NCBI GenBank assembly: GCA_016839705.1 | Contig: JAEOTR010000016.1 | Location: forward strand, 73,556 to 137,555 | Source: Promethearchaeota archaeon | GTDB lineage: Archaea; Asgardarchaeota; Lokiarchaeia; Sigyniarchaeales; SOKP01 | Direction of reading: 5' to 3' | DNA: 64,000 nucleotides | Shown: piece after piece, positions 1,417 to 60,971 of the stretch | Layout of the letters: each line of letters begins with the position of its first letter | Numbering within the stretch: position 1 is the stretch's first letter | The notes under the pieces: generated by a model | Database searches by the model: none | Seen by the model: the letters and a program-made list of their open reading frames with translations, nothing else | Told to the model about the DNA's origin: nothing | Made by a program: the position numbers and the translations under genes

Positions 1417-3669
1417 TTAGTATGAAGTGTGAGTACTACTCATGTTAACTAATCTTGGTAAAACTATGCAAGAAGGATAATCTGGACCTACAAGTAGTGT
1501 ATTATTAGCGATATTGTAGTTTAAATAGCTATAAGCTAATGGTGCCCCTGTATTTGGATTTGCTGCGAAACGAGGATAATTAGAACTCGAGATTGCAATT
1601 CTTATCTTATGACCTTGTGCAAAAACATAGGCTGTGGACCATAAATCAACAAATAATTCATAGACATCGGTTTGATTCCCTGACATAAATCCTTCAGAGG
1701 TATAATTATTTCTTGAACGAACTGTTAAAGAACCATCTGTTATTAACATCGAACGTCCATCTGGATAAACATCAGTAAGTTTTACTGTAAAATCTGTATC
1801 CGTACAATTGGAAGTAACAAATAAATTCCCAAAAATTCTTCCTACGGTCTCCACTGATTCTGGTAATGCTGTGCTTTCAAAGATTAGAACATCAGGTCTA
1901 CTCTCGGTAGACCTCTGATCCATTGGGCCTGCTAAGTCGAAAGGTTGGTTTTGTCCCCCTAAATTTGGAACAGGATCTCTTGGATCGTATAAGTAAGAGA
2001 AATTCTTATTTATAGAAGGAAGAGTACTATTAATTAAACCGCTAGTTGACGTGAAATACCACTTATCATCCACATGATCAAGAGGCCAATCATAAGCATA
2101 TCTCCAGTAATTCCAATCATCAGAAGGAGTATCTACATCGCCCATTAGATAATAGGCGACCCTTTCTCTGTTCCAATTTGTAGACTTCCCTAAAAGAGCA
2201 TAATCAAAAACAGCCATTTCCCAATTCAAAGCAAGATTAAAGCCAATTGAGTTCTTTGGATAACTTAATTCTCCTTGTTTTACTGAATCAAACAAGTTGA
2301 CATGAGTCCATGGTCCCATTATTAATCTTTGTTTACCTTGAGCGCTAAGGGCACCATAATCATCATATCCAATGTATCCATCGATAGTACCTTGTAAAAA
2401 ATGGTCATACCAGCCACCCACATGTATTCCCGCAACAGAAACGTTCGAATAGACTGGTCCAATTGGTATTGATAACGATGTTGAATTGTATAGTGTTTCA
2501 TCTTTAGGATTTGAAAACGATAAAAGAGTTTCGATTTGATATTTCCAATTGTTTGGAGCATTATCTTGAATCCATGTCTCAACGGAGGATTTATGGTAAG
2601 AGCCTTGATAGATTGCATGATCGTATAATTCTGGAGTTCCAAACCATAGTTGTTGGGCGACTAATCCCTCAGGAGCCATTCCTGCATAGAAATATTGATT
2701 GATACAGAGTGCGGAAGGTCCAGCGCTCGCAATTTTGCCATTACACCAACTTTGGTCTAATATCCAATTGATAGTGTCAACGCCATCTAAATAGGAATCT
2801 TTAAAGAGTAAGAATTGACTTCCTCCTTCAGAATCATGAGTTCCCCTTAAATCTTGTACTACTGCATGGTATTCTTGAGTTGTATAATACTGTAAAGCCA
2901 AATCAGCAGCCCAACCTGATTTACCATAAGGAGTTCTTACCATAACAACTGGTTTTGGGGTTCCAAAAGAACCCGGAGAAAAATATAAATCAGTAGCTAA
3001 TTTGACACCATCCCTCATCTCAACCATATATGTCTTTTTTGTGGTAGGAGCGTATACTAGAGTAATTGTAAGAATAGTGGAAGGGATTGCTATTAAAAGT
3101 ATTAAACTTGCAGCTTTAACTGGTCTTGGAAATTTATTCAACCATCTTTTATCATATTTAGTGATCAACTTTGAAAGCGAGAGATTAGAAATTTTTAACC
3201 CATAATGGAAGTAGGCTAGTAGACTTATCCCGACTGCGGCTATCGAGTAATAATTCACTTCAATAAACAGAAACCAAATTATTCCTCCCAAAGGTATAAG
3301 TATATTGAATAGTTTTGCTATTTTATCTATATACTTAAATCTTATATTTTTGCTGATGTGTTTAAGATAATTGGTTGTCATCAATAATGAATAAAAAGAG
3401 ATGAATACCGCAATAGGGGATAATACAATTCCAATTAAAATTATTGAAACCTGTTTTAAGGTAAAGTTAATAATTTCATTTTTAGTAAATAACTTCTTCC
3501 CTTCTTCCAACTCTTTATTAAAATCTTTGTAATAATTGAAGTAATACGCACCTATGTATAATCCGCGGCAGATTAGTAGCATTAGTAAATTAGTGGTAAA
3601 GATTTGTTCGAAGTTTAAGTACCCTAAACTATATAGCTGAAAAAATATCATTATAATCCAATTAATCAT
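1417..3669 (-). CDS. CocE/NonD-family serine hydrolase with N-terminal membrane domain
   Basis: MRDGVKLATDLY, RTPYGK, QDLRG, nucleophile GPSAL, GGWYD, GPWTH, C-terminal SSSNYPRF; about 200 aa hydrophobic N-terminus. Confidence 0.9.
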   Translation of the reverse strand: MINWIIMIFFQLYSLGYLNFEQIFTTNLLMLLICRGLYIGAYYFNYYKDFNKELEEGKKLFTKNEIINFTLKQVSIILIGIVLSPIAVFISFYSLLMTTNYLKHISKNIRFKYIDKIAKLFNILIPLGGIIWFLFIEVNYYSIAAVGISLLAYFHYGLKISNLSLSKLITKYDKRWLNKFPRPVKAASLILLIAIPSTILTITLVYAPTTKKTYMVEMRDGVKLATDLYFSPGSFGTPKPVVMVRTPYGKSGWAADLALQYYTTQEYHAVVQDLRGTHDSEGGSQFLLFKDSYLDGVDTINWILDQSWCNGKIASAGPSALCINQYFYAGMAPEGLVAQQLWFGTPELYDHAIYQGSYHKSSVETWIQDNAPNNWKYQIETLLSFSNPKDETLYNSTSLSIPIGPVYSNVSVAGIHVGGWYDHFLQGTIDGYIGYDDYGALSAQGKQRLIMGPWTHVNLFDSVKQGELSYPKNSIGFNLALNWEMAVFDYALLGKSTNWNRERVAYYLMGDVDTPSDDWNYWRYAYDWPLDHVDDKWYFTSTSGLINSTLPSINKNFSYLYDPRDPVPNLGGQNQPFDLAGPMDQRSTESRPDVLIFESTALPESVETVGRIFGNLFVTSNCTDTDFTVKLTDVYPDGRSMLITDGSLTVRSRNNYTSEGFMSGNQTDVYELFVDLWSTAYVFAQGHKIRIAISSSNYPRFAANPNTGAPLAYSYLNYNIANNTLLVGPDYPSCIVLPRLVNMSSTHTSY

Positions 3670-39897: not shown

Positions 39898-39934
39898 TCT
39901 CTATAATTATTTGAATAATAAAGTTAGAAGAATT

Positions 39935-40465
39935 ATGTCTAAAAGTAATATCGCGCTAATTGGGTTTATGGCAACAGGGAAAACTACAGTAGGGAAGGCA
40001 CTGGTAGATTATCTAGGAAGCCCATACTCCTTCATTGAAACAGACCAAATAATAATAGAGAATGTTGGAAAGGATATCCCAAAGATTTTTGCAGAAGAAG
40101 GTGAAAATAAATTTCGGGAATATGAAATATCTGCATGTAAACAAGTTTCCTTATTAAAAAATGTTGTGATTTCATGCGGGGGTGGCGTTGTGTTAAACAA
40201 GGTAAATATTGATAATCTAAAGAAGAATTGCTATATTATGTTATTAAAAGCATCGACCCAAGAGATATACACTAGAGCTATGAAGGATGGAAAGGAAACT
40301 AGACCTATTATTAATAAAGAAGATCCCAAAAGTGAAATAGAGGATGTTCTAAAATTCCGGAATCCCTTATACAATAGTGCTGCAGATTTTGTTATTGAAA
40401 CAACTGGTAAGAAAATTAGTGATATTGTTATAGAGATTGTTAAAAAAACCCATCTAAAAACCTAA
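39935..40465 (+). CDS. aroK: Shikimate kinase (NMP-kinase fold, AroK type)
   Basis: GFMATGKTT, EGENKFREYE, CGGG, RP; ATG at 39935. Confidence 0.92.
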   Translation: MSKSNIALIGFMATGKTTVGKALVDYLGSPYSFIETDQIIIENVGKDIPKIFAEEGENKFREYEISACKQVSLLKNVVISCGGGVVLNKVNIDNLKKNCYIMLLKASTQEIYTRAMKDGKETRPIINKEDPKSEIEDVLKFRNPLYNSAADFVIETTGKKISDIVIEIVKKTHLKT

Positions 40466-40521
40466 ATTTAAATTTATAAAGCCTACTAATATTGTATAAA
40501 ACATGGTTAAGAGTAAAGATT

Positions 40522-40730
40522 ATGACGGAATATAAAAGGACTAAATGCCCAAAATGTAACAATGAGAATCCACGCATGCTCCATGATGAACCCGATAAGA
40601 GTAATATTCTTTACTACAGTATTGAAAACGTTATTTAAACTTTTCGCTGAAGCAGGGAACACCAGTTTATGCGCGAATCATAAAATGTGGCGATTGCGGA
40701 AACACATTTTCAAAATCTGCCCCAGCTTAA
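40522..40730 (+). CDS. 59-aa C4 zinc-ribbon protein encoded in two exons (40522-40622 and 40652-40730)
   Basis: Spliced product MTEYKRTKCPKCNNENPRMLHDEPDKSNILYYSMQGTPVYARIIKCGDCGNTFSKSAPA. The unspliced frame stops at 40636-40638. TATA-like TTTATAAA at 40473-40480; T-rich tract downstream. Confidence 0.8.
40623..40651 (+). other. 29-nt BHB-type intron in an mRNA
   Basis: Central helix CAGT/GCTG, bulges AT|T and AA|G, intron stem GAAAA-c-GTT/AAC-TTTTC; cuts at the standard BHB positions restore the frame. Confidence 0.78.
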
Positions 40731-40789
40731 CATTCTAAAAAAAGATTACTCTTTCTTTTTTTAATTCTTATTTATTTAAGTGAAAGAAG

Positions 40790-41542
40790 CTAAATGCTAA
40801 GATTTAACAGGTTCAGAATTTCTCTTAATTTAGTAATACTTATTTGACCTGATGCCGTTTTTTCTAAATAGGAACCATATGTTAAGAAAGACTTGCTAAA
40901 ATTGCACAAAATTCTTGACAATAGTCCCACTTCACCCATGCAAAAGGAGATTAATCTTAATTTTTTACTTGATTTTATTTTGCATAATTGTAAAGGAATT
41001 AAATTATCCTCAAAAGATTGAGCTGTAAATATAAGTTTGAAAATGCCTTTTTCTACAATCTTTTGATCAATTTGAACGTTTTGTTTCAACTTTTTCAAAG
41101 AATCTTCTAAAATTTCAACTGCTACATCGTAAGTAGGAGTTTTTTCAAAATCGTGAAGAGAAAATATTAGGTTTACCTTATTATGTGATGCTAAGCGAAT
41201 TATTTCACTTAAAATACTACTTTCAGTATTAATTTCAATATCAAGATATCTTGGCTCTGATTCAATTATAATTTTTATTATTTGAAGTCGCTTACTGACT
41301 TCAATTTCTATCTGTCCACCTTCAGAGTAATCTCTAAAAGTACAGATCACGGGAATTTTTGGTTGAATTCGATTTATTAGATCAATTATAAAATCTTTAG
41401 TAATTTTTTGGATATCGGAAATATAATCAAATCTTAGTTCGATAAAGTCGGGATTAAGAATTATAACTTTTTCAATAGTTGGGGCGATCTCGCTGACCAC
41501 TACAGATTTAATTGGGATTGGTACACAAATATTGTACTTCAT
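40790..41542 (-). CDS. aroD: Type I 3-dehydroquinate dehydratase
   Basis: IELRFD, ICTFR...EGG, SLHDFEKTP, FCMG...SR, ASGQ. Confidence 0.9.
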   Translation of the reverse strand: MKYNICVPIPIKSVVVSEIAPTIEKVIILNPDFIELRFDYISDIQKITKDFIIDLINRIQPKIPVICTFRDYSEGGQIEIEVSKRLQIIKIIIESEPRYLDIEINTESSILSEIIRLASHNKVNLIFSLHDFEKTPTYDVAVEILEDSLKKLKQNVQIDQKIVEKGIFKLIFTAQSFEDNLIPLQLCKIKSSKKLRLISFCMGEVGLLSRILCNFSKSFLTYGSYLEKTASGQISITKLREILNLLNLSI

Positions 41543-41569
41543 AGTAAGAAATTAATTTCCTAATAAAAA

Positions 41570-42214
41570 TTAAATATTCAATATTTCTTTTATATCTTTT
41601 TCGGTGAATTTCAAGGTGTTTTCAGCGTTTACTTTTTTGAGGATTCCCATTTTTTTATAATACTTAATAATCGGCTTTGCATTCTTTTCATAAGCATCTA
41701 ATCTGTTTTTCAGTGTTTCTTCATTATCATCACTTCGTTGTTCAAATTTTATTTCAGAACCACATGCATCACATATACCTTCTACCTTAGGTGGAAGAGT
41801 ATATTTATTGTAAAGCTTATTACAATTAGGACAGGCGTATCTACCTAATATTCTTTTCATTATTAAGTCTCTTGGAACTTCTAGTAGAAGTAATAGATCA
41901 ACTTCAGTTATATTTGTTAACGCTTTTGCCTGAGATATCGTACGAGGGAATCCATCAAGAATGAAACCTTCTGCCTTCACATCTTCTCTAGTCAGTCGAT
42001 CTCGTACCATCTCGATAGTCACATCATCAGGAACTAGCTCACCTTTATCCATATAGCCTTTAGCTTTCAATCCTAAGGGTGTTTCATTTTTCAAGTTTTC
42101 CCTAAATATATCTCCTGTACTGATATGAATAATATCTGGCAAAACTTTTCTAATCTGTGAACTAAAGGTACCTTTTCCCGCGCCAGGCGGACCAAACAGT
42201 ATTAATTTTTTCAT
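41570..42214 (-). CDS. adk: Adenylate kinase, bacterial/eukaryotic type with zinc LID
   Basis: GPPGAGKGT, HISTGDIFR, LDGFPR, CPNC...CDAC, RSDD. Confidence 0.95.
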   Translation of the reverse strand: MKKLILFGPPGAGKGTFSSQIRKVLPDIIHISTGDIFRENLKNETPLGLKAKGYMDKGELVPDDVTIEMVRDRLTREDVKAEGFILDGFPRTISQAKALTNITEVDLLLLLEVPRDLIMKRILGRYACPNCNKLYNKYTLPPKVEGICDACGSEIKFEQRSDDNEETLKNRLDAYEKNAKPIIKYYKKMGILKKVNAENTLKFTEKDIKEILNI

Positions 42215-60097: not shown

Positions 60098-60523
60098 TTA
60101 TTCTGATTCCTTTGTACTGATTATTCTATTAGTTTCTTCTCTTATAGATTGAATAATATTTAATAATTGTGCAAAGTATAGGTTATCTGCAACAGATTTT
60201 GAGGCTTGTTTTATTGTCTCAATCGCTTTCTTTTCTTCCTCCGTTATTGCTTCTATCGCCTTTTCATTCCAAAGGTCTTTTACTTTATTATTAAAATCTT
60301 CACTTAAATCTTGGAGGTTTTTACTAGATTGAATTCTAAATTGTTTCAAGACTTCTACAATTAACCGTATATTCTCTGTCATAGAAACCGTTTGCTCAGA
60401 AAATCTTTGGCTCATTTGGGCTATTGAACCACTCATTTGGTTAATCTGAGCAATTGTTCCATCTAAGGAGCTCATAATCTGATTAATCTTTTGAATCATC
60501 TCTTCTAATAATCGTTCTGCCAT
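60098..60523 (-). CDS. Coiled-coil hypothetical protein
   Basis: Heptad pattern throughout; AGGTGA upstream. Confidence 0.7.
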   Translation of the reverse strand: MAERLLEEMIQKINQIMSSLDGTIAQINQMSGSIAQMSQRFSEQTVSMTENIRLIVEVLKQFRIQSSKNLQDLSEDFNNKVKDLWNEKAIEAITEEEKKAIETIKQASKSVADNLYFAQLLNIIQSIREETNRIISTKESE

Positions 60524-60557
60524 TTTTTTCTCACCTAATTATAACAAATATCCTAAT

Positions 60558-60971
60558 TTATTCTATTACCTCTTGTTCTTTTAGAGATTCTTTTAGACTT
60601 TTTACAGTATCGATTGCCTCTGATAATAAAAGATTCACGGTATCCTGATTAAGAAGGCCTTCAGAAAGATTTGAAAAATCTTCAAGTTTTTTAATTAAAT
60701 TATTTAATGCATCCAATCCTAATCCTTCTTGTATCACTTTCAATTCTTTAGTTGTCCCCGTCCCGATTTCTTTTACAGCATCAATGTGTTTCGTTTGAGT
60801 TACATGGATCTCATTAGAAAATTCTTCTAATTTCCCGGTTAAATTTGAAATTTTTTCTTCAATGTTTATATTGAGAGCATTCAGAGAGGTATTTAGATCT
60901 TGTATTGATTTTCCCAATTGTGCTATCCTTTTATATATGTTCTGTAAAAGGTCAGTTAACATTTCAGCCAT
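60558..60971 (-). CDS. Coiled-coil hypothetical protein
   Basis: Heptad pattern; similar length and N-terminus (MAExL) to 60098. Confidence 0.7.
   Translation of the reverse strand: MAEMLTDLLQNIYKRIAQLGKSIQDLNTSLNALNINIEEKISNLTGKLEEFSNEIHVTQTKHIDAVKEIGTGTTKELKVIQEGLGLDALNNLIKKLEDFSNLSEGLLNQDTVNLLLSEAIDTVKSLKESLKEQEVIE

What the first reader, a model, noticed from the sequence alone, without database searches (positions are those of the whole stretch)
40522..40730. Protein-coding gene split by a tRNA-type (BHB) intron: splicing builds a zinc-ribbon protein
Seen in sequence: an unannotated gap holds exon 1 (MTEYKRTKCPKC...ILYYS) and, in another frame, exon 2 (QGTPVYARIIKCGDCGNTF...). The 29 nt between them (40623-40651) form a bulge-helix-bulge: central helix CAGT/GCTG, 3-nt bulges AT|T and AA|G, and an internal stem GAAAA-c-GTT/AAC-TTTTC. 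Cutting after the second nucleotide of each bulge joins AT+G into ATG and gives an in-frame 59-aa protein with CPKC...CGDC. The unspliced RNA stops inside the intron (38 aa, one CxxC only). Established: the archaeal endonuclease EndA cuts BHBs in exactly this register, and BHB introns in mRNA are rare (crenarchaeal cbf5 is the classic case). Inference: this Asgard archaeon splices an mRNA with its tRNA-splicing machinery, possibly as an on/off switch. That would be conceptually like the non-spliceosomal, tRNA-ligase-dependent HAC1/XBP1 splicing of eukaryotes. The product loosely resembles a TFIIS/RpoM-type zinc ribbon.
Basis: partly seen in the sequence, partly recalled or inferred. Interest (0 to 1): 0.95.

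Follow-up and report, generated by a model that had tools for sequence, protein, structure and literature searches.

The report
tRNA-type mini-intron in Asgard zinc-ribbon gene
A 59-codon zinc-binding protein gene of an Asgard (Promethearchaeota) archaeon is split by a 29-base insert shaped like a tRNA intron, and comparison with about 50 sister species indicates the insert is cut out of the messenger RNA, which papers I could search confirm for only one other archaeal protein gene (cbf5).

Summary
Exon 1 is 40522-40622, the insert is 40623-40651 (29 nt), and exon 2 is 40652-40730.

[quoted passage not shown] The comparative evidence decides the case:
- 13 intron-less orthologs in the same genus, at the same place after aroK, read ...AGTATGCA(A/G)GG (YYSMQG). 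That is exactly the predicted joint.
- 35 of 54 congeneric genomes carry a 29-nt insert at exactly this site. 8 of its 12 base pairs show compensatory changes, and 93% of cells pair against 15-48% when the partner strand is slid.
- Exon 2 is under strong purifying selection in the spliced frame (dN/dS 0.06).
- The Ser codon that forms the exon half of the central helix is fixed (AGT/AGC) only in intron-bearing genes.

The genome encodes RtcB and an EndA catalytic subunit of the broad-specificity crenarchaeal type. Its RNase HII gene is split by a similar insert.

No RNA data were available, so excision is inferred, not shown. The "on/off switch" idea and the TFIIS assignment are unsupported.

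This scan has already reported the same gene and the same kind of intron on other Asgard DNA and elsewhere in this genome. I found no publication on Asgard mRNA BHB introns.

The parts
40462..40513 (+). Upstream region with A/T-rich TATA/BRE-like block (AAATTTAAATTTAT...CTACTAA...) and a GGTTAAGAG block about 9 nt before the start codon
   Evidence: Read. The same blocks recur upstream of both intron-bearing and intron-less orthologs. Promoter function is inferred.
40522..40622 (+). Exon 1: 33 codons (MTEYKRTKCPKCNNENPRMLHDEPDKSNILYYS) plus AT, the first two bases of the Met35 codon
   Evidence: dN/dS is 0.070 among 28 intron-bearing orthologs.
40617..40620 (+). 5' strand of the central 4-bp helix H (CAGU), lying in exon 1 (Tyr32 third base plus the Ser33 codon)
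   Evidence: The Ser33 codon is AGT in 32 and AGC in 1 intron-bearing genes. In intron-less genes it is TCA 6, AGT 5, TCG 2, TCC 1.
40621..40623 (+). 5' bulge AU|U, with the cut after 40622
   Evidence: The joint position is fixed by the intron-less orthologs.
40623..40651 (+). 29-nt intron. Inner helix h' is 40624-40632 with 40638-40645, the loop is 40633-40637, and the in-frame TAA lies at 40636-40638
   Evidence: covariation. The covariance model R1 finds it at 53 bits.
40646..40649 (+). 3' strand of the central helix H (GCUG), lying in the intron
   Evidence: The pair types CG, UG and UA at one pair and UG, UA and CG at another keep the pairing.
40650..40652 (+). 3' bulge AA|G, with the cut after 40651
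40652..40730 (+). Exon 2: G (third base of Met35), then QGTPVYARIIKCGDCGNTFSKSAPA and stop TAA
   Evidence: dN/dS is 0.057. Variable columns at codon positions 1, 2 and 3 number 7, 9 and 21.
40750..40762 (+). T-rich run after the stop codon (possible archaeal terminator)
   Evidence: Read. Function is inferred.
39911..40465 (+). Upstream neighbour, shikimate kinase (aroK)-like gene, used as synteny anchor
   Evidence: aroK lies directly upstream of the zinc-ribbon gene in nearly all orthologous loci.

Best explanation
Window 40522-40730 is one live gene for a 59-aa four-cysteine zinc-ribbon protein. A 29-nt archaeal bulge-helix-bulge intron of the relaxed HBh' type interrupts it.

Proposed mechanism:
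1. The pre-mRNA folds so that exon bases CAGU pair with intron bases GCUG. An 8-9 bp intron hairpin stacks on this helix and two 3-nt bulges are exposed.
2. The tRNA-splicing endonuclease EndA cuts after the second nucleotide of each bulge (after 40622 and after 40651).
3. RtcB joins the exons. This creates the Met35 codon AU+G and restores the frame.

Without splicing, only a 38-aa fragment with one CxxC knuckle can be made.

Shown: the anatomy, the exact joint (from intron-less orthologs), selection on the RNA structure, selection on exon 2 in the spliced frame, and the presence of both enzymes.

Inferred: that cutting and joining actually occur, and that EndA and RtcB perform them.

The intron is probably one of a population of mini-introns in this lineage rather than a purpose-built regulator.
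For: (1) Exact joint. 13 intron-less orthologs in the same genus, plus more distant ones, read ...TA(C/T) (AGT/TCN) ATG CA(A/G) GG = YYSMQG. They sit directly after aroK, like the window's gene. In a wider set, 51 of 80 loci are intron-less and 28 carry the 29-nt insert.

(2) Recurrence at one site. 35 of 54 congeneric genomes carry a 29-nt insert exactly between AGTAT and GCAGG, with 32 distinct intron sequences.

(3) Selection on the RNA structure. On 35 sequences, 93.4% of cells pair against 15-48% when slid. 8 of 12 pairs have changes on both sides, and 0 of 500 shuffles reach the observed values.

(4) Selection on the protein.
- All 33 intron-bearing genes with a recognised start codon give an intact 56-59 aa protein with four Cys after excision.
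- Exon 2 has dN/dS 0.057, and 21 of 22 third positions vary against 7 first and 9 second positions.

(5) Constraint on the exon half of the motif. The Ser33 codon is AGT or AGC in 33 of 33 intron-bearing genes but mostly TCN in intron-less ones.

(6) Machinery.
- RtcB is present.
- An EndA catalytic subunit is present. Its nearest solved relatives are the crenarchaeal alpha subunits (3p1z_B, E 1.3e-34).
- The alignment runs without a gap through the crenarchaea-specific loop, and the K44/R46 equivalents are kept. That loop confers broad specificity (PMC3241643).
- Asgard EndA is reported as (alpha-beta)2 with this loop (PMC5829648).
- The cut register matches that stated for cbf5 (PMC2738675).

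(7) Other such introns.
- The genome's RNase HII gene is split inside GIDEAGR|GPVIGP by a 30-nt BHB insert carrying TAA.
- Orthologs of the zinc-ribbon gene carry further BHB inserts at a second site.

(8) The insert is real DNA.
Against: - No RNA evidence. No RNA run holds the stretch, and no exactly matching spliced protein is in the 5.8-billion-protein collection.
- The outer exon-exon helix h is weak: an A.C mismatch followed by 2 bp. Cleavage therefore needs a broad-specificity enzyme.
- The EndA beta subunit was not found by sequence in this 93%-complete genome.
- The motif alone is not statistically distinctive.
- The orthologs are related species, so counts of genomes overstate independent events. 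A rough tree needs only 3 or more changes of intron state.
Confidence: 0.88

Rival explanations
1. Recoding during translation. The ribosome shifts frame (-1/+2) or hops over the 29 nt, and the conserved hairpin acts as a stimulator rather than as a splicing motif.
For: A conserved hairpin next to a stop codon is also what frameshift and bypass signals look like. The covariation shows a selected structure, not what reads it.
Against: - Intron-less orthologs have exactly one residue (Met) where a frameshift would insert 9-10 residues.
- The Met codon exists only as AT|G split across the insert.
- The exon-2 frame is closed by TGA at 40623-40625 and the exon-1 frame by TAA at 40636-40638. Any shift would have to occur in AAACGTTATT, inside the hairpin, and that stretch has no X XXY YYZ heptamer.
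- A hop needs matching take-off and landing codons. The codon before exon 2 varies (AAG, ACG, AGG) and has no in-frame match in the window's copy.
- Length is fixed at 29 nt, and conservation follows the BHB register: the bulges, the 4-bp helix, and the Ser codon in the exon.
Confidence: 0.04
2. Broken gene. The 29 nt are a small insertion that inactivated the gene, or only the 38-aa exon-1 peptide is functional and exon 2 is a decaying remnant.
For: Public annotations call only truncated 38-42 aa products at such loci (P0039-P0041). The unspliced frame stops inside the insert.
Against: - Exon 2 is intact in all 33 intron-bearing orthologs examined and evolves with dN/dS 0.057 in the spliced frame. 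A dead remnant would show no codon periodicity and would collect stops and indels.
- The insert itself keeps its length and its pairing through compensatory changes.
Confidence: 0.02
3. Regulatory switch (a refinement of the best explanation, not exclusive with it). Splicing is conditional, so the cell toggles between a 38-aa half-finger and the full zinc ribbon, as HAC1/XBP1 splicing toggles a transcription factor.
For: - The intron has been kept at one site in 35 of 54 congeners.
- The unspliced product would keep one CxxC knuckle.
- Unlike many mobile elements, this intron family is confined to this gene.
Against: - 13 congeners and all other families searched lack the intron and encode the same protein.
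- Similar inserts sit in a housekeeping gene of this genome and at a second site of this gene in other species. This fits neutral or selfish mini-introns.
- The residues read from the intron before the stop are not conserved.
- No expression data exist.
Confidence: 0.1
4. Assembly or sequencing artefact. The 29 nt are not in the organism's DNA.
For: The genome is a metagenome-assembled draft of 97 contigs with 6.8% contamination.
Against: Contigs from three other samples bridge the site with no gap. 34 other genomes from many studies carry a homologous insert at the same site.
Confidence: 0.005

Closest known systems
BHB intron in the cbf5 (aCbf5 pseudouridine synthase) pre-mRNA of Desulfurococcales and Sulfolobales (Watanabe 2002; Yoshinari 2006; Yokobori 2009, PMC2738675)
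   Same: - A short tRNA-type intron inside an archaeal coding sequence.
- Mostly a relaxed BHB motif.
- Cut between the second and third bulge nucleotides.
- The host has a hetero-oligomeric, broad-specificity EndA.
- Patchy presence and absence among related species.
- Gene callers mistake it for a frameshift or truncation.
   Different: - A different host gene: a 59-aa zinc ribbon of unknown function.
- A different phylum: Promethearchaeota (Asgard), not Crenarchaeota.
- Splicing of cbf5 was confirmed by cDNA, whereas here it is inferred from comparison only.
- At least two intron sites occur in one 170-nt gene, and one species holds an intragenic second copy.
Non-canonical BHB introns of Asgard and Thermoproteales tRNA genes (bioRxiv 10.64898/2026.10.13.758758; Marck and Grosjean 2003)
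   Same: Same motif, same size range and same presumed enzymes. The lineage is intron-rich: aragorn finds only 19 tRNAs here, 12 of them with introns.
   Different: The host RNA is an mRNA. The exon half of the motif must therefore be built from codons, which fixes the Ser33 codon, and excision must keep the reading frame.
HAC1/XBP1 unconventional mRNA splicing of eukaryotes
   Same: It is non-spliceosomal. A small intron is removed from an mRNA by an endonuclease that leaves ends suited to a tRNA ligase (RtcB in animals), and removal changes the reading frame of the C-terminal part.
   Different: - The endonuclease there is Ire1, which recognises twin stem-loops, not EndA recognising a BHB.
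- That splicing is stress-regulated and cytoplasmic.
- Nothing here shows regulation. This is an analogy, not homology of the system.
Zinc ribbons of TFIIS/TFS/Rpb9/RPA12 type and other small archaeal zinc-finger proteins
   Same: Two CxxC knuckles about 32 residues apart, and a predicted beta-hairpin fold (pLDDT 77). The weakly best fold matches include RPA12, TFIIS and MqsA ribbons.
   Different: No family passes its cut-off and fold-search E values are >= 0.3. The closest real relatives are a 64-aa paralog and the C-terminal domains of gelsolin-repeat and coiled-coil proteins in the same genome.

Membership tests
Archaeal bulge-helix-bulge (BHB) intron, substrate of EndA | [quoted passage not shown] | tested here: met
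   CAGU/GCUG with bulges AUU and AAG. The helix is kept in 99.3% of cells across 34 distinct orthologs, with pair types CG, UG and UA at one pair and UG, UA and CG at another.
Archaeal bulge-helix-bulge (BHB) intron, substrate of EndA | At least one flanking helix: h' made of intron or h made of exon (classes hBHBh', HBh', hBH) | tested here: met
   h' has 8-9 bp, and 7 of its 8 counted pairs show changes on both sides. The outer helix h is weak (an A.C mismatch, then 2 bp), so the class is HBh'.
Archaeal bulge-helix-bulge (BHB) intron, substrate of EndA | Cuts between the second and third bulge nucleotides give the functional joined RNA | tested here: met
   The predicted joint AGTAT|GCAGG equals the sequence of 13 intron-less congeneric orthologs. 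The cut register is as stated in PMC2738675.
Archaeal bulge-helix-bulge (BHB) intron, substrate of EndA | The host encodes the splicing endonuclease (broad-specificity type for relaxed motifs) and an RtcB ligase | tested here: met
   - EndA catalytic domain at 97.8 bits.
- Its nearest solved relatives are crenarchaeal alpha subunits, with the CSL lysine and arginine kept.
- RtcB at 564 bits.
- The beta subunit was not found by sequence.
Archaeal bulge-helix-bulge (BHB) intron, substrate of EndA | The intron is actually excised from the RNA (junction reads, circular or linear free intron) | not testable with these tools
No exactly matching spliced protein is in the protein collection.
cbf5 pre-mRNA intron family | Located in cbf5, at the codon of the catalytic aspartate | tested here: not met
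   The host gene is a 59-aa zinc ribbon with no TruB/Cbf5 similarity. It works like the cbf5 intron but is not a member of that family.
TFIIS / TFS (RpoM) C-terminal zinc ribbon (PF01096, TIGR01384) | Match to the family profile above its curated cut-off | tested here: not met
   PF01096 is not listed for the orthologs and scores 12.9 bits (cut-off 21) for the paralog. TIGR01384 scores 20.1 bits (cut-off 64.75) for the paralog. Fold matches to TFIIS and RPA12 have E 0.47-0.66.
Programmed -1 ribosomal frameshift site | Slippery heptamer X XXY YYZ in the zero frame, 5-9 nt upstream of a stimulatory structure | tested here: not met
   There is no such heptamer in the only stretch open in both frames (40626-40635). 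That stretch lies inside the hairpin.

The most novel reading that the evidence does not exclude
This gene may be one visible case of routine mRNA splicing by the tRNA-splicing enzymes in Promethearchaeota. In this reading, 29-32-nt BHB mini-introns populate many protein genes, including essential ones. They multiply by being copied into sites whose codons happen to supply the exon half of the motif.

- G015 has a second, related copy after another CAGTAT 23 nt downstream in the same gene.
- Site 2 of the gene is occupied in at least four further lineages.

That would mean intron gain, loss and an obligatory mRNA-splicing step already operate in the closest prokaryotic relatives of eukaryotes, by a non-spliceosomal route.
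Probability: 0.5. Interest if true: 0.9.

Novelty: new member of a known kind. Interest (0 to 1): 0.78.

Why it matters
Archaeal protein genes are treated as uninterrupted. The papers I could search confirm splicing inside a coding sequence only for crenarchaeal cbf5 (PMC2738675).

Here a different gene, in the phylum closest to eukaryotes, needs the tRNA-splicing enzymes before its protein can be made. The comparative record shows intron-less and intron-bearing alleles, compensatory changes, two intron sites and one intragenic duplication. That makes gain, loss and constraint of such introns directly studiable.

In practice, gene callers truncate these genes to 38-42 aa fragments, so Asgard proteomes are systematically mis-annotated at such loci.

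It also offers a clean in vitro substrate, about 70 nt long, for testing what Asgard EndA accepts outside a tRNA.

Tried and rejected
The protein search found no exact spliced product, only relatives and truncated calls.
- Motif-only statistics. The single-sequence fold z-score is -1.42. A strict BHB scan of the gene gives many chance motifs. A genome-wide BHB-plus-ORF-fusion scan was no better than shifted-cut controls (526 against 528-567). Its hits inside the window are adjacent genes: adk/aroD at 41547-41573 and tandem coiled-coil genes at 60098-60971.
- Spread of this intron family. Covariance model R1 finds one site per genome in 35 of 54 genomes plus the second G015 copy. There are no copies in other genes. 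The only other hit in the own genome (C82, 24.6 bits) lies antisense inside an intact 493-aa ORF and is taken as chance.
- Protein function. Pfam, NCBIfam and a fold search of an AlphaFold model gave only "generic zinc ribbon". The JGI name "ribosomal protein S27AE" for some orthologs is not supported (18.7 bits against a cut-off of 54).
- EndA beta subunit. It was not found with the alpha subunit as query.
- History of the intron. A rough tree of the aroK C-terminus plus the zinc-ribbon protein shows clustering of intron state and needs 3 or more changes. Its deep branches are unresolved, so one gain with losses cannot be told from several gains.
- Frameshift, hop, pseudogene and artefact readings were rejected for the reasons given under rivals.

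Full report
WHAT IS THERE

Between an aroK-like gene (39911-40465) and an aroD-like gene (40790-41542, minus strand) lies a stretch with no long ORF.
- From ATG 40522 one frame reads MTEYKRTKCPKCNNENPRMLHDEPDKSNILYYS, then IENVI, and stops at TAA 40636-38.
- From 40653 another frame reads QGTPVYARIIKCGDCGNTFSKSAPA*.
- Removing 40623-40651 (29 nt) joins AT and G into an ATG codon and gives a 59-aa protein with CPKC and CGDC.
- The RNA minimum-free-energy fold of 40600-40670 contains the proposed structure. It has a 4-bp helix CAGU/GCUG, a 3-nt bulge AUU, and an inner stem of 5+3 bp with one bulged C and a 5-nt loop. AAG follows the helix.
- The topology is that of a pre-tRNA BHB. The 5' bulge lies between the central helix and the intron helix. 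The 3' bulge lies between the central helix and the exon.

IS IT MORE THAN CHANCE?

Taken alone, it is not.
- The fold z-score is -1.42.
- BHB-like motifs are common in this AT-rich DNA.
- My genome-wide scan for BHB motifs whose excision fuses two open frames gave 526 hits, against 528-567 when the 3' cut was shifted by 1-2 nt.
- A recent preprint makes the same point for relaxed motifs.

The case therefore rests on comparison.

COMPARATIVE EVIDENCE

A six-frame search with the spliced protein found the gene in 60 of 61 related genomes. It found the gene in 48 of the 54 genomes of the genus at E <= 1e-11. In nearly all loci the gene lies directly downstream of aroK.

There are two forms.
- Thirteen congeners have an uninterrupted gene that reads ...CTT TAC TAC AGT ATG CAA GGC... 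= LYYSMQG. This is exactly the joint predicted from the BHB cuts. Genomes of other families in the order have the same uninterrupted form.
- Thirty-five congeners have a 29-nt insert exactly between AGTAT and GCAGG, with 32 distinct intron sequences.

The joint is unambiguous. Shifting it by one base would not reproduce the intron-less sequence.

Structure counts on the 35-sequence alignment:
- 93.4% of cells form standard pairs in the stated structure, against 15-48% when the 3' partners are slid by 1-3 columns.
- 8 of 12 pairs show changes on both sides. Examples are GAAAA/UUUUC, GGAAA/UUUCC, GGUA/UACC, AGUA/UACU, GGUUGA/UCAAUC and GAUA/UAUC.
- None of 500 shuffles reaches any observed measure.
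- The central helix varies while keeping pairs: CAGU/GCUG, UAGU/GCUA, CAGU/ACUG and CAGC/GCUG.
- These are related species, so the counts are not independent events. The slid controls, which keep relatedness, still fail.

THE GENE IS ALIVE AND IS READ IN THE SPLICED FRAME

- After excision, all 33 intron-bearing orthologs with a recognised start codon give an intact 56-59 aa protein with all four cysteines and an invariant LYYSMQGTPVY.
- Among 28 of them, dN/dS is 0.070 for exon 1 and 0.057 for exon 2. In exon 2, 21 of 22 third codon positions vary, against 7 first and 9 second positions.
- Exon 2 has no start codon of its own before the conserved QGTPVY.
- The exon half of the motif is also constrained. 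The Ser33 codon is AGT (32) or AGC (1) in intron-bearing genes. It is TCA, TCG, TCC or AGT in intron-less ones.
- Upstream A/T-rich blocks and a GAGTTAAGG-like block before the start codon are shared by both forms.

This excludes a pseudogene and a stand-alone 38-aa product.

NOT AN ARTEFACT

DNA contigs of three further samples of the same study bridge the site with no gap. Homologous inserts occur in MAGs from many studies.

RECODING RIVALS

- A -1/+2 frameshift would have to occur within AAACGTTATT (40626-40635). That stretch lies between a TGA closing the exon-2 frame and the TAA closing the exon-1 frame, inside the hairpin, and has no slippery heptamer.
- Such a shift would insert 9-10 residues where intron-less orthologs have one Met.
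- A hop needs matching take-off and landing codons. The codon before exon 2 varies (AAG, ACG, AGG) and has no in-frame match in this copy.
- The Met35 codon exists only as AT|G.

MACHINERY

- The genome encodes RtcB.
- It encodes a 197-aa EndA catalytic subunit.
- The best solved relatives of that subunit are the catalytic alpha subunits of heterotetrameric crenarchaeal enzymes (3p1z_B, 3ajv_B, 2cv8, 2zyz_B).
- The alignment to A. pernix EndA runs without a gap through the crenarchaea-specific loop and keeps the equivalents of K44 and R46 (GINKPRL against DVEKPRG).
- That loop and Lys44 confer broad substrate specificity (PMC3241643).
- Asgard archaea are reported to have (alpha-beta)2 EndA with this loop (PMC5829648).
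- This matters because the outer exon-exon helix here is weak (an A.C mismatch, then 2 bp), which makes the motif HBh'.
- I did not find the beta subunit by sequence.
- Aragorn finds only 19 tRNAs, 12 of them with introns. This fits the heavily interrupted tRNA genes described for Asgard archaea.

CONTEXT: OTHER SUCH INTRONS

Within this gene:
- G015 has a second intron of 31 nt after a second CAGTAT, 23 nt downstream in the spliced CDS. It is related in sequence to the first and is hit by the covariance model at 29.3 bits.
- G029 has a 32-nt hBHBh' intron (UUAU/AUAA, 8-bp inner stem) after CDS nt 122.
- G016 has a 30-nt insert at that same site.
- Two more distant MAGs also have 30-nt inserts at that site.

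Each excision restores ...PVY(K/A/S)...KCGxCG.

Elsewhere in this genome, the RNase HII gene is split inside GIDEAGR|GPVIGP by a 30-nt insert with an in-frame TAA. Its BHB has helix UGGU/ACCA and a 9-bp inner stem.

The covariance model of the site-1 intron finds no copies in other genes of 54 genomes. This particular family is therefore confined to this gene.

Earlier notes of this scan report the same gene in two other genomes and several other split genes in this genome. One of those notes claims an RNA contig that lacks the insert. I re-tested the RNase HII case and the EndA loop. The RNA claim I could not test.

THE PROTEIN

- It is a small four-cysteine zinc ribbon of unknown function.
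- No Pfam or NCBIfam family passes its cut-off.
- An AlphaFold model (pLDDT 77) is a pair of beta-hairpins. Its PDB matches are weak (E >= 0.3) and go to zinc ribbons of RPA12, TFIIS, MqsA and Rpp21 type.
- Real relatives in this genome are a 64-aa paralog and the C-terminal domains of a two-gelsolin-repeat protein and a coiled-coil protein.

TFIIS/RpoM membership is not met.

ORGANISM

Record titles of orthologous loci read Promethearchaeota or Promethearchaeia archaeon (formerly Lokiarchaeota), from marine sediment and similar habitats.

HISTORY

A rough tree (aroK C-terminus plus the protein) shows that intron state is clustered and needs at least three changes. Its deep branches are unresolved. 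An intron-less 59-aa relative of the window's own sub-clade exists (P0005, 85% identity). State therefore changes at a fine scale. The direction of change was not resolved.

VERDICT

This is a BHB intron in an Asgard protein-coding gene, removed in the register of EndA. It is the same kind of intron as in crenarchaeal cbf5, but in a new gene and a new phylum.
- Shown: the anatomy, the exact joint, selection on the structure and on both exons, and the presence of the enzymes.
- Inferred: that excision and ligation occur in the cell.
- Not supported: the switch idea and the TFIIS assignment.

I found no publication on BHB introns in Asgard mRNAs. This scan has reported the same thing before on other DNA.

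Noticed in passing
L059 (G015:C20), L130; gene nt 154-184 of the unspliced gene: The ortholog in G015 carries two introns. Besides the site-1 intron it has a 31-nt BHB insert (CAGT AT|A ... GCTG AG|A) after a second CAGTAT in the PVY codons. It is similar in sequence to the first intron, which suggests an intragenic duplication or transposition of the intron.
   Followed up: partly
L018/L132 (G029), L024/L142 (G016), L116, L131: A second intron site lies after CDS nt 122 (TTAT AA|A, codon 41). It holds a 32-nt frame-shifting hBHBh' insert in G029 and 30-nt inserts with in-frame stops in G016 and in two more distant Promethearchaeota MAGs. Excision restores ...PVYK..KCGxCG in each case.
   Followed up: partly
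L066 (G000:C25) 1524-1553: The RNase HII gene of the window's own genome is split inside its catalytic motif GIDEAGR|GPVIGP by a 30-nt insert with an in-frame TAA. The insert has a BHB with helix TGGT/ACCA, bulges AG|A and AA|A, and a 9-bp inner stem.
   Followed up: partly
whole genome G000: Aragorn finds only 19 tRNA genes in a 93%-complete genome, 12 of them with introns. Many tRNA genes are probably too interrupted to be detected.
   Followed up: no
L004 (G000:C64) 1489-2496 minus strand; L005 (G000:C52) 1165-1665; L003 (G000:C20) 1504-1698 minus strand: The same zinc-ribbon domain (CPxC...DKxNI..YPRVYGKK..CGxCG) occurs uninterrupted in three places: as a 64-aa protein, as the C-terminal domain of a protein with two gelsolin repeats, and in a coiled-coil protein. 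This hints at a cytoskeleton-linked role for the domain.
   Followed up: no
P0039-P0041; P0013, P0024, P0027, P0035: Public collections hold truncated 38-42 aa products of unspliced orthologs. Some intron-less orthologs are named "ribosomal protein S27AE" by JGI. Profile scores do not support that name (18.7 bits against a cut-off of 54).
   Followed up: partly
window 60098-60971, minus strand: Two tandem paralogous genes (137 and 141 aa, both starting MAE.L) for coiled-coil-like proteins are separated by 34 nt. My intron scan flagged the spacer, but each gene has its own start codon and a GGTGA motif, so this is not an intron.
   Followed up: yes
window 40462-40513 and the 60 nt upstream of orthologs: Conserved upstream blocks AAATTTAAATTTAT, CTACTAA(A/T)TAT and (A/G)GAGTTAAGG precede the start codon across the genus. 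They are probably a promoter and a translation-initiation signal.
   Followed up: no
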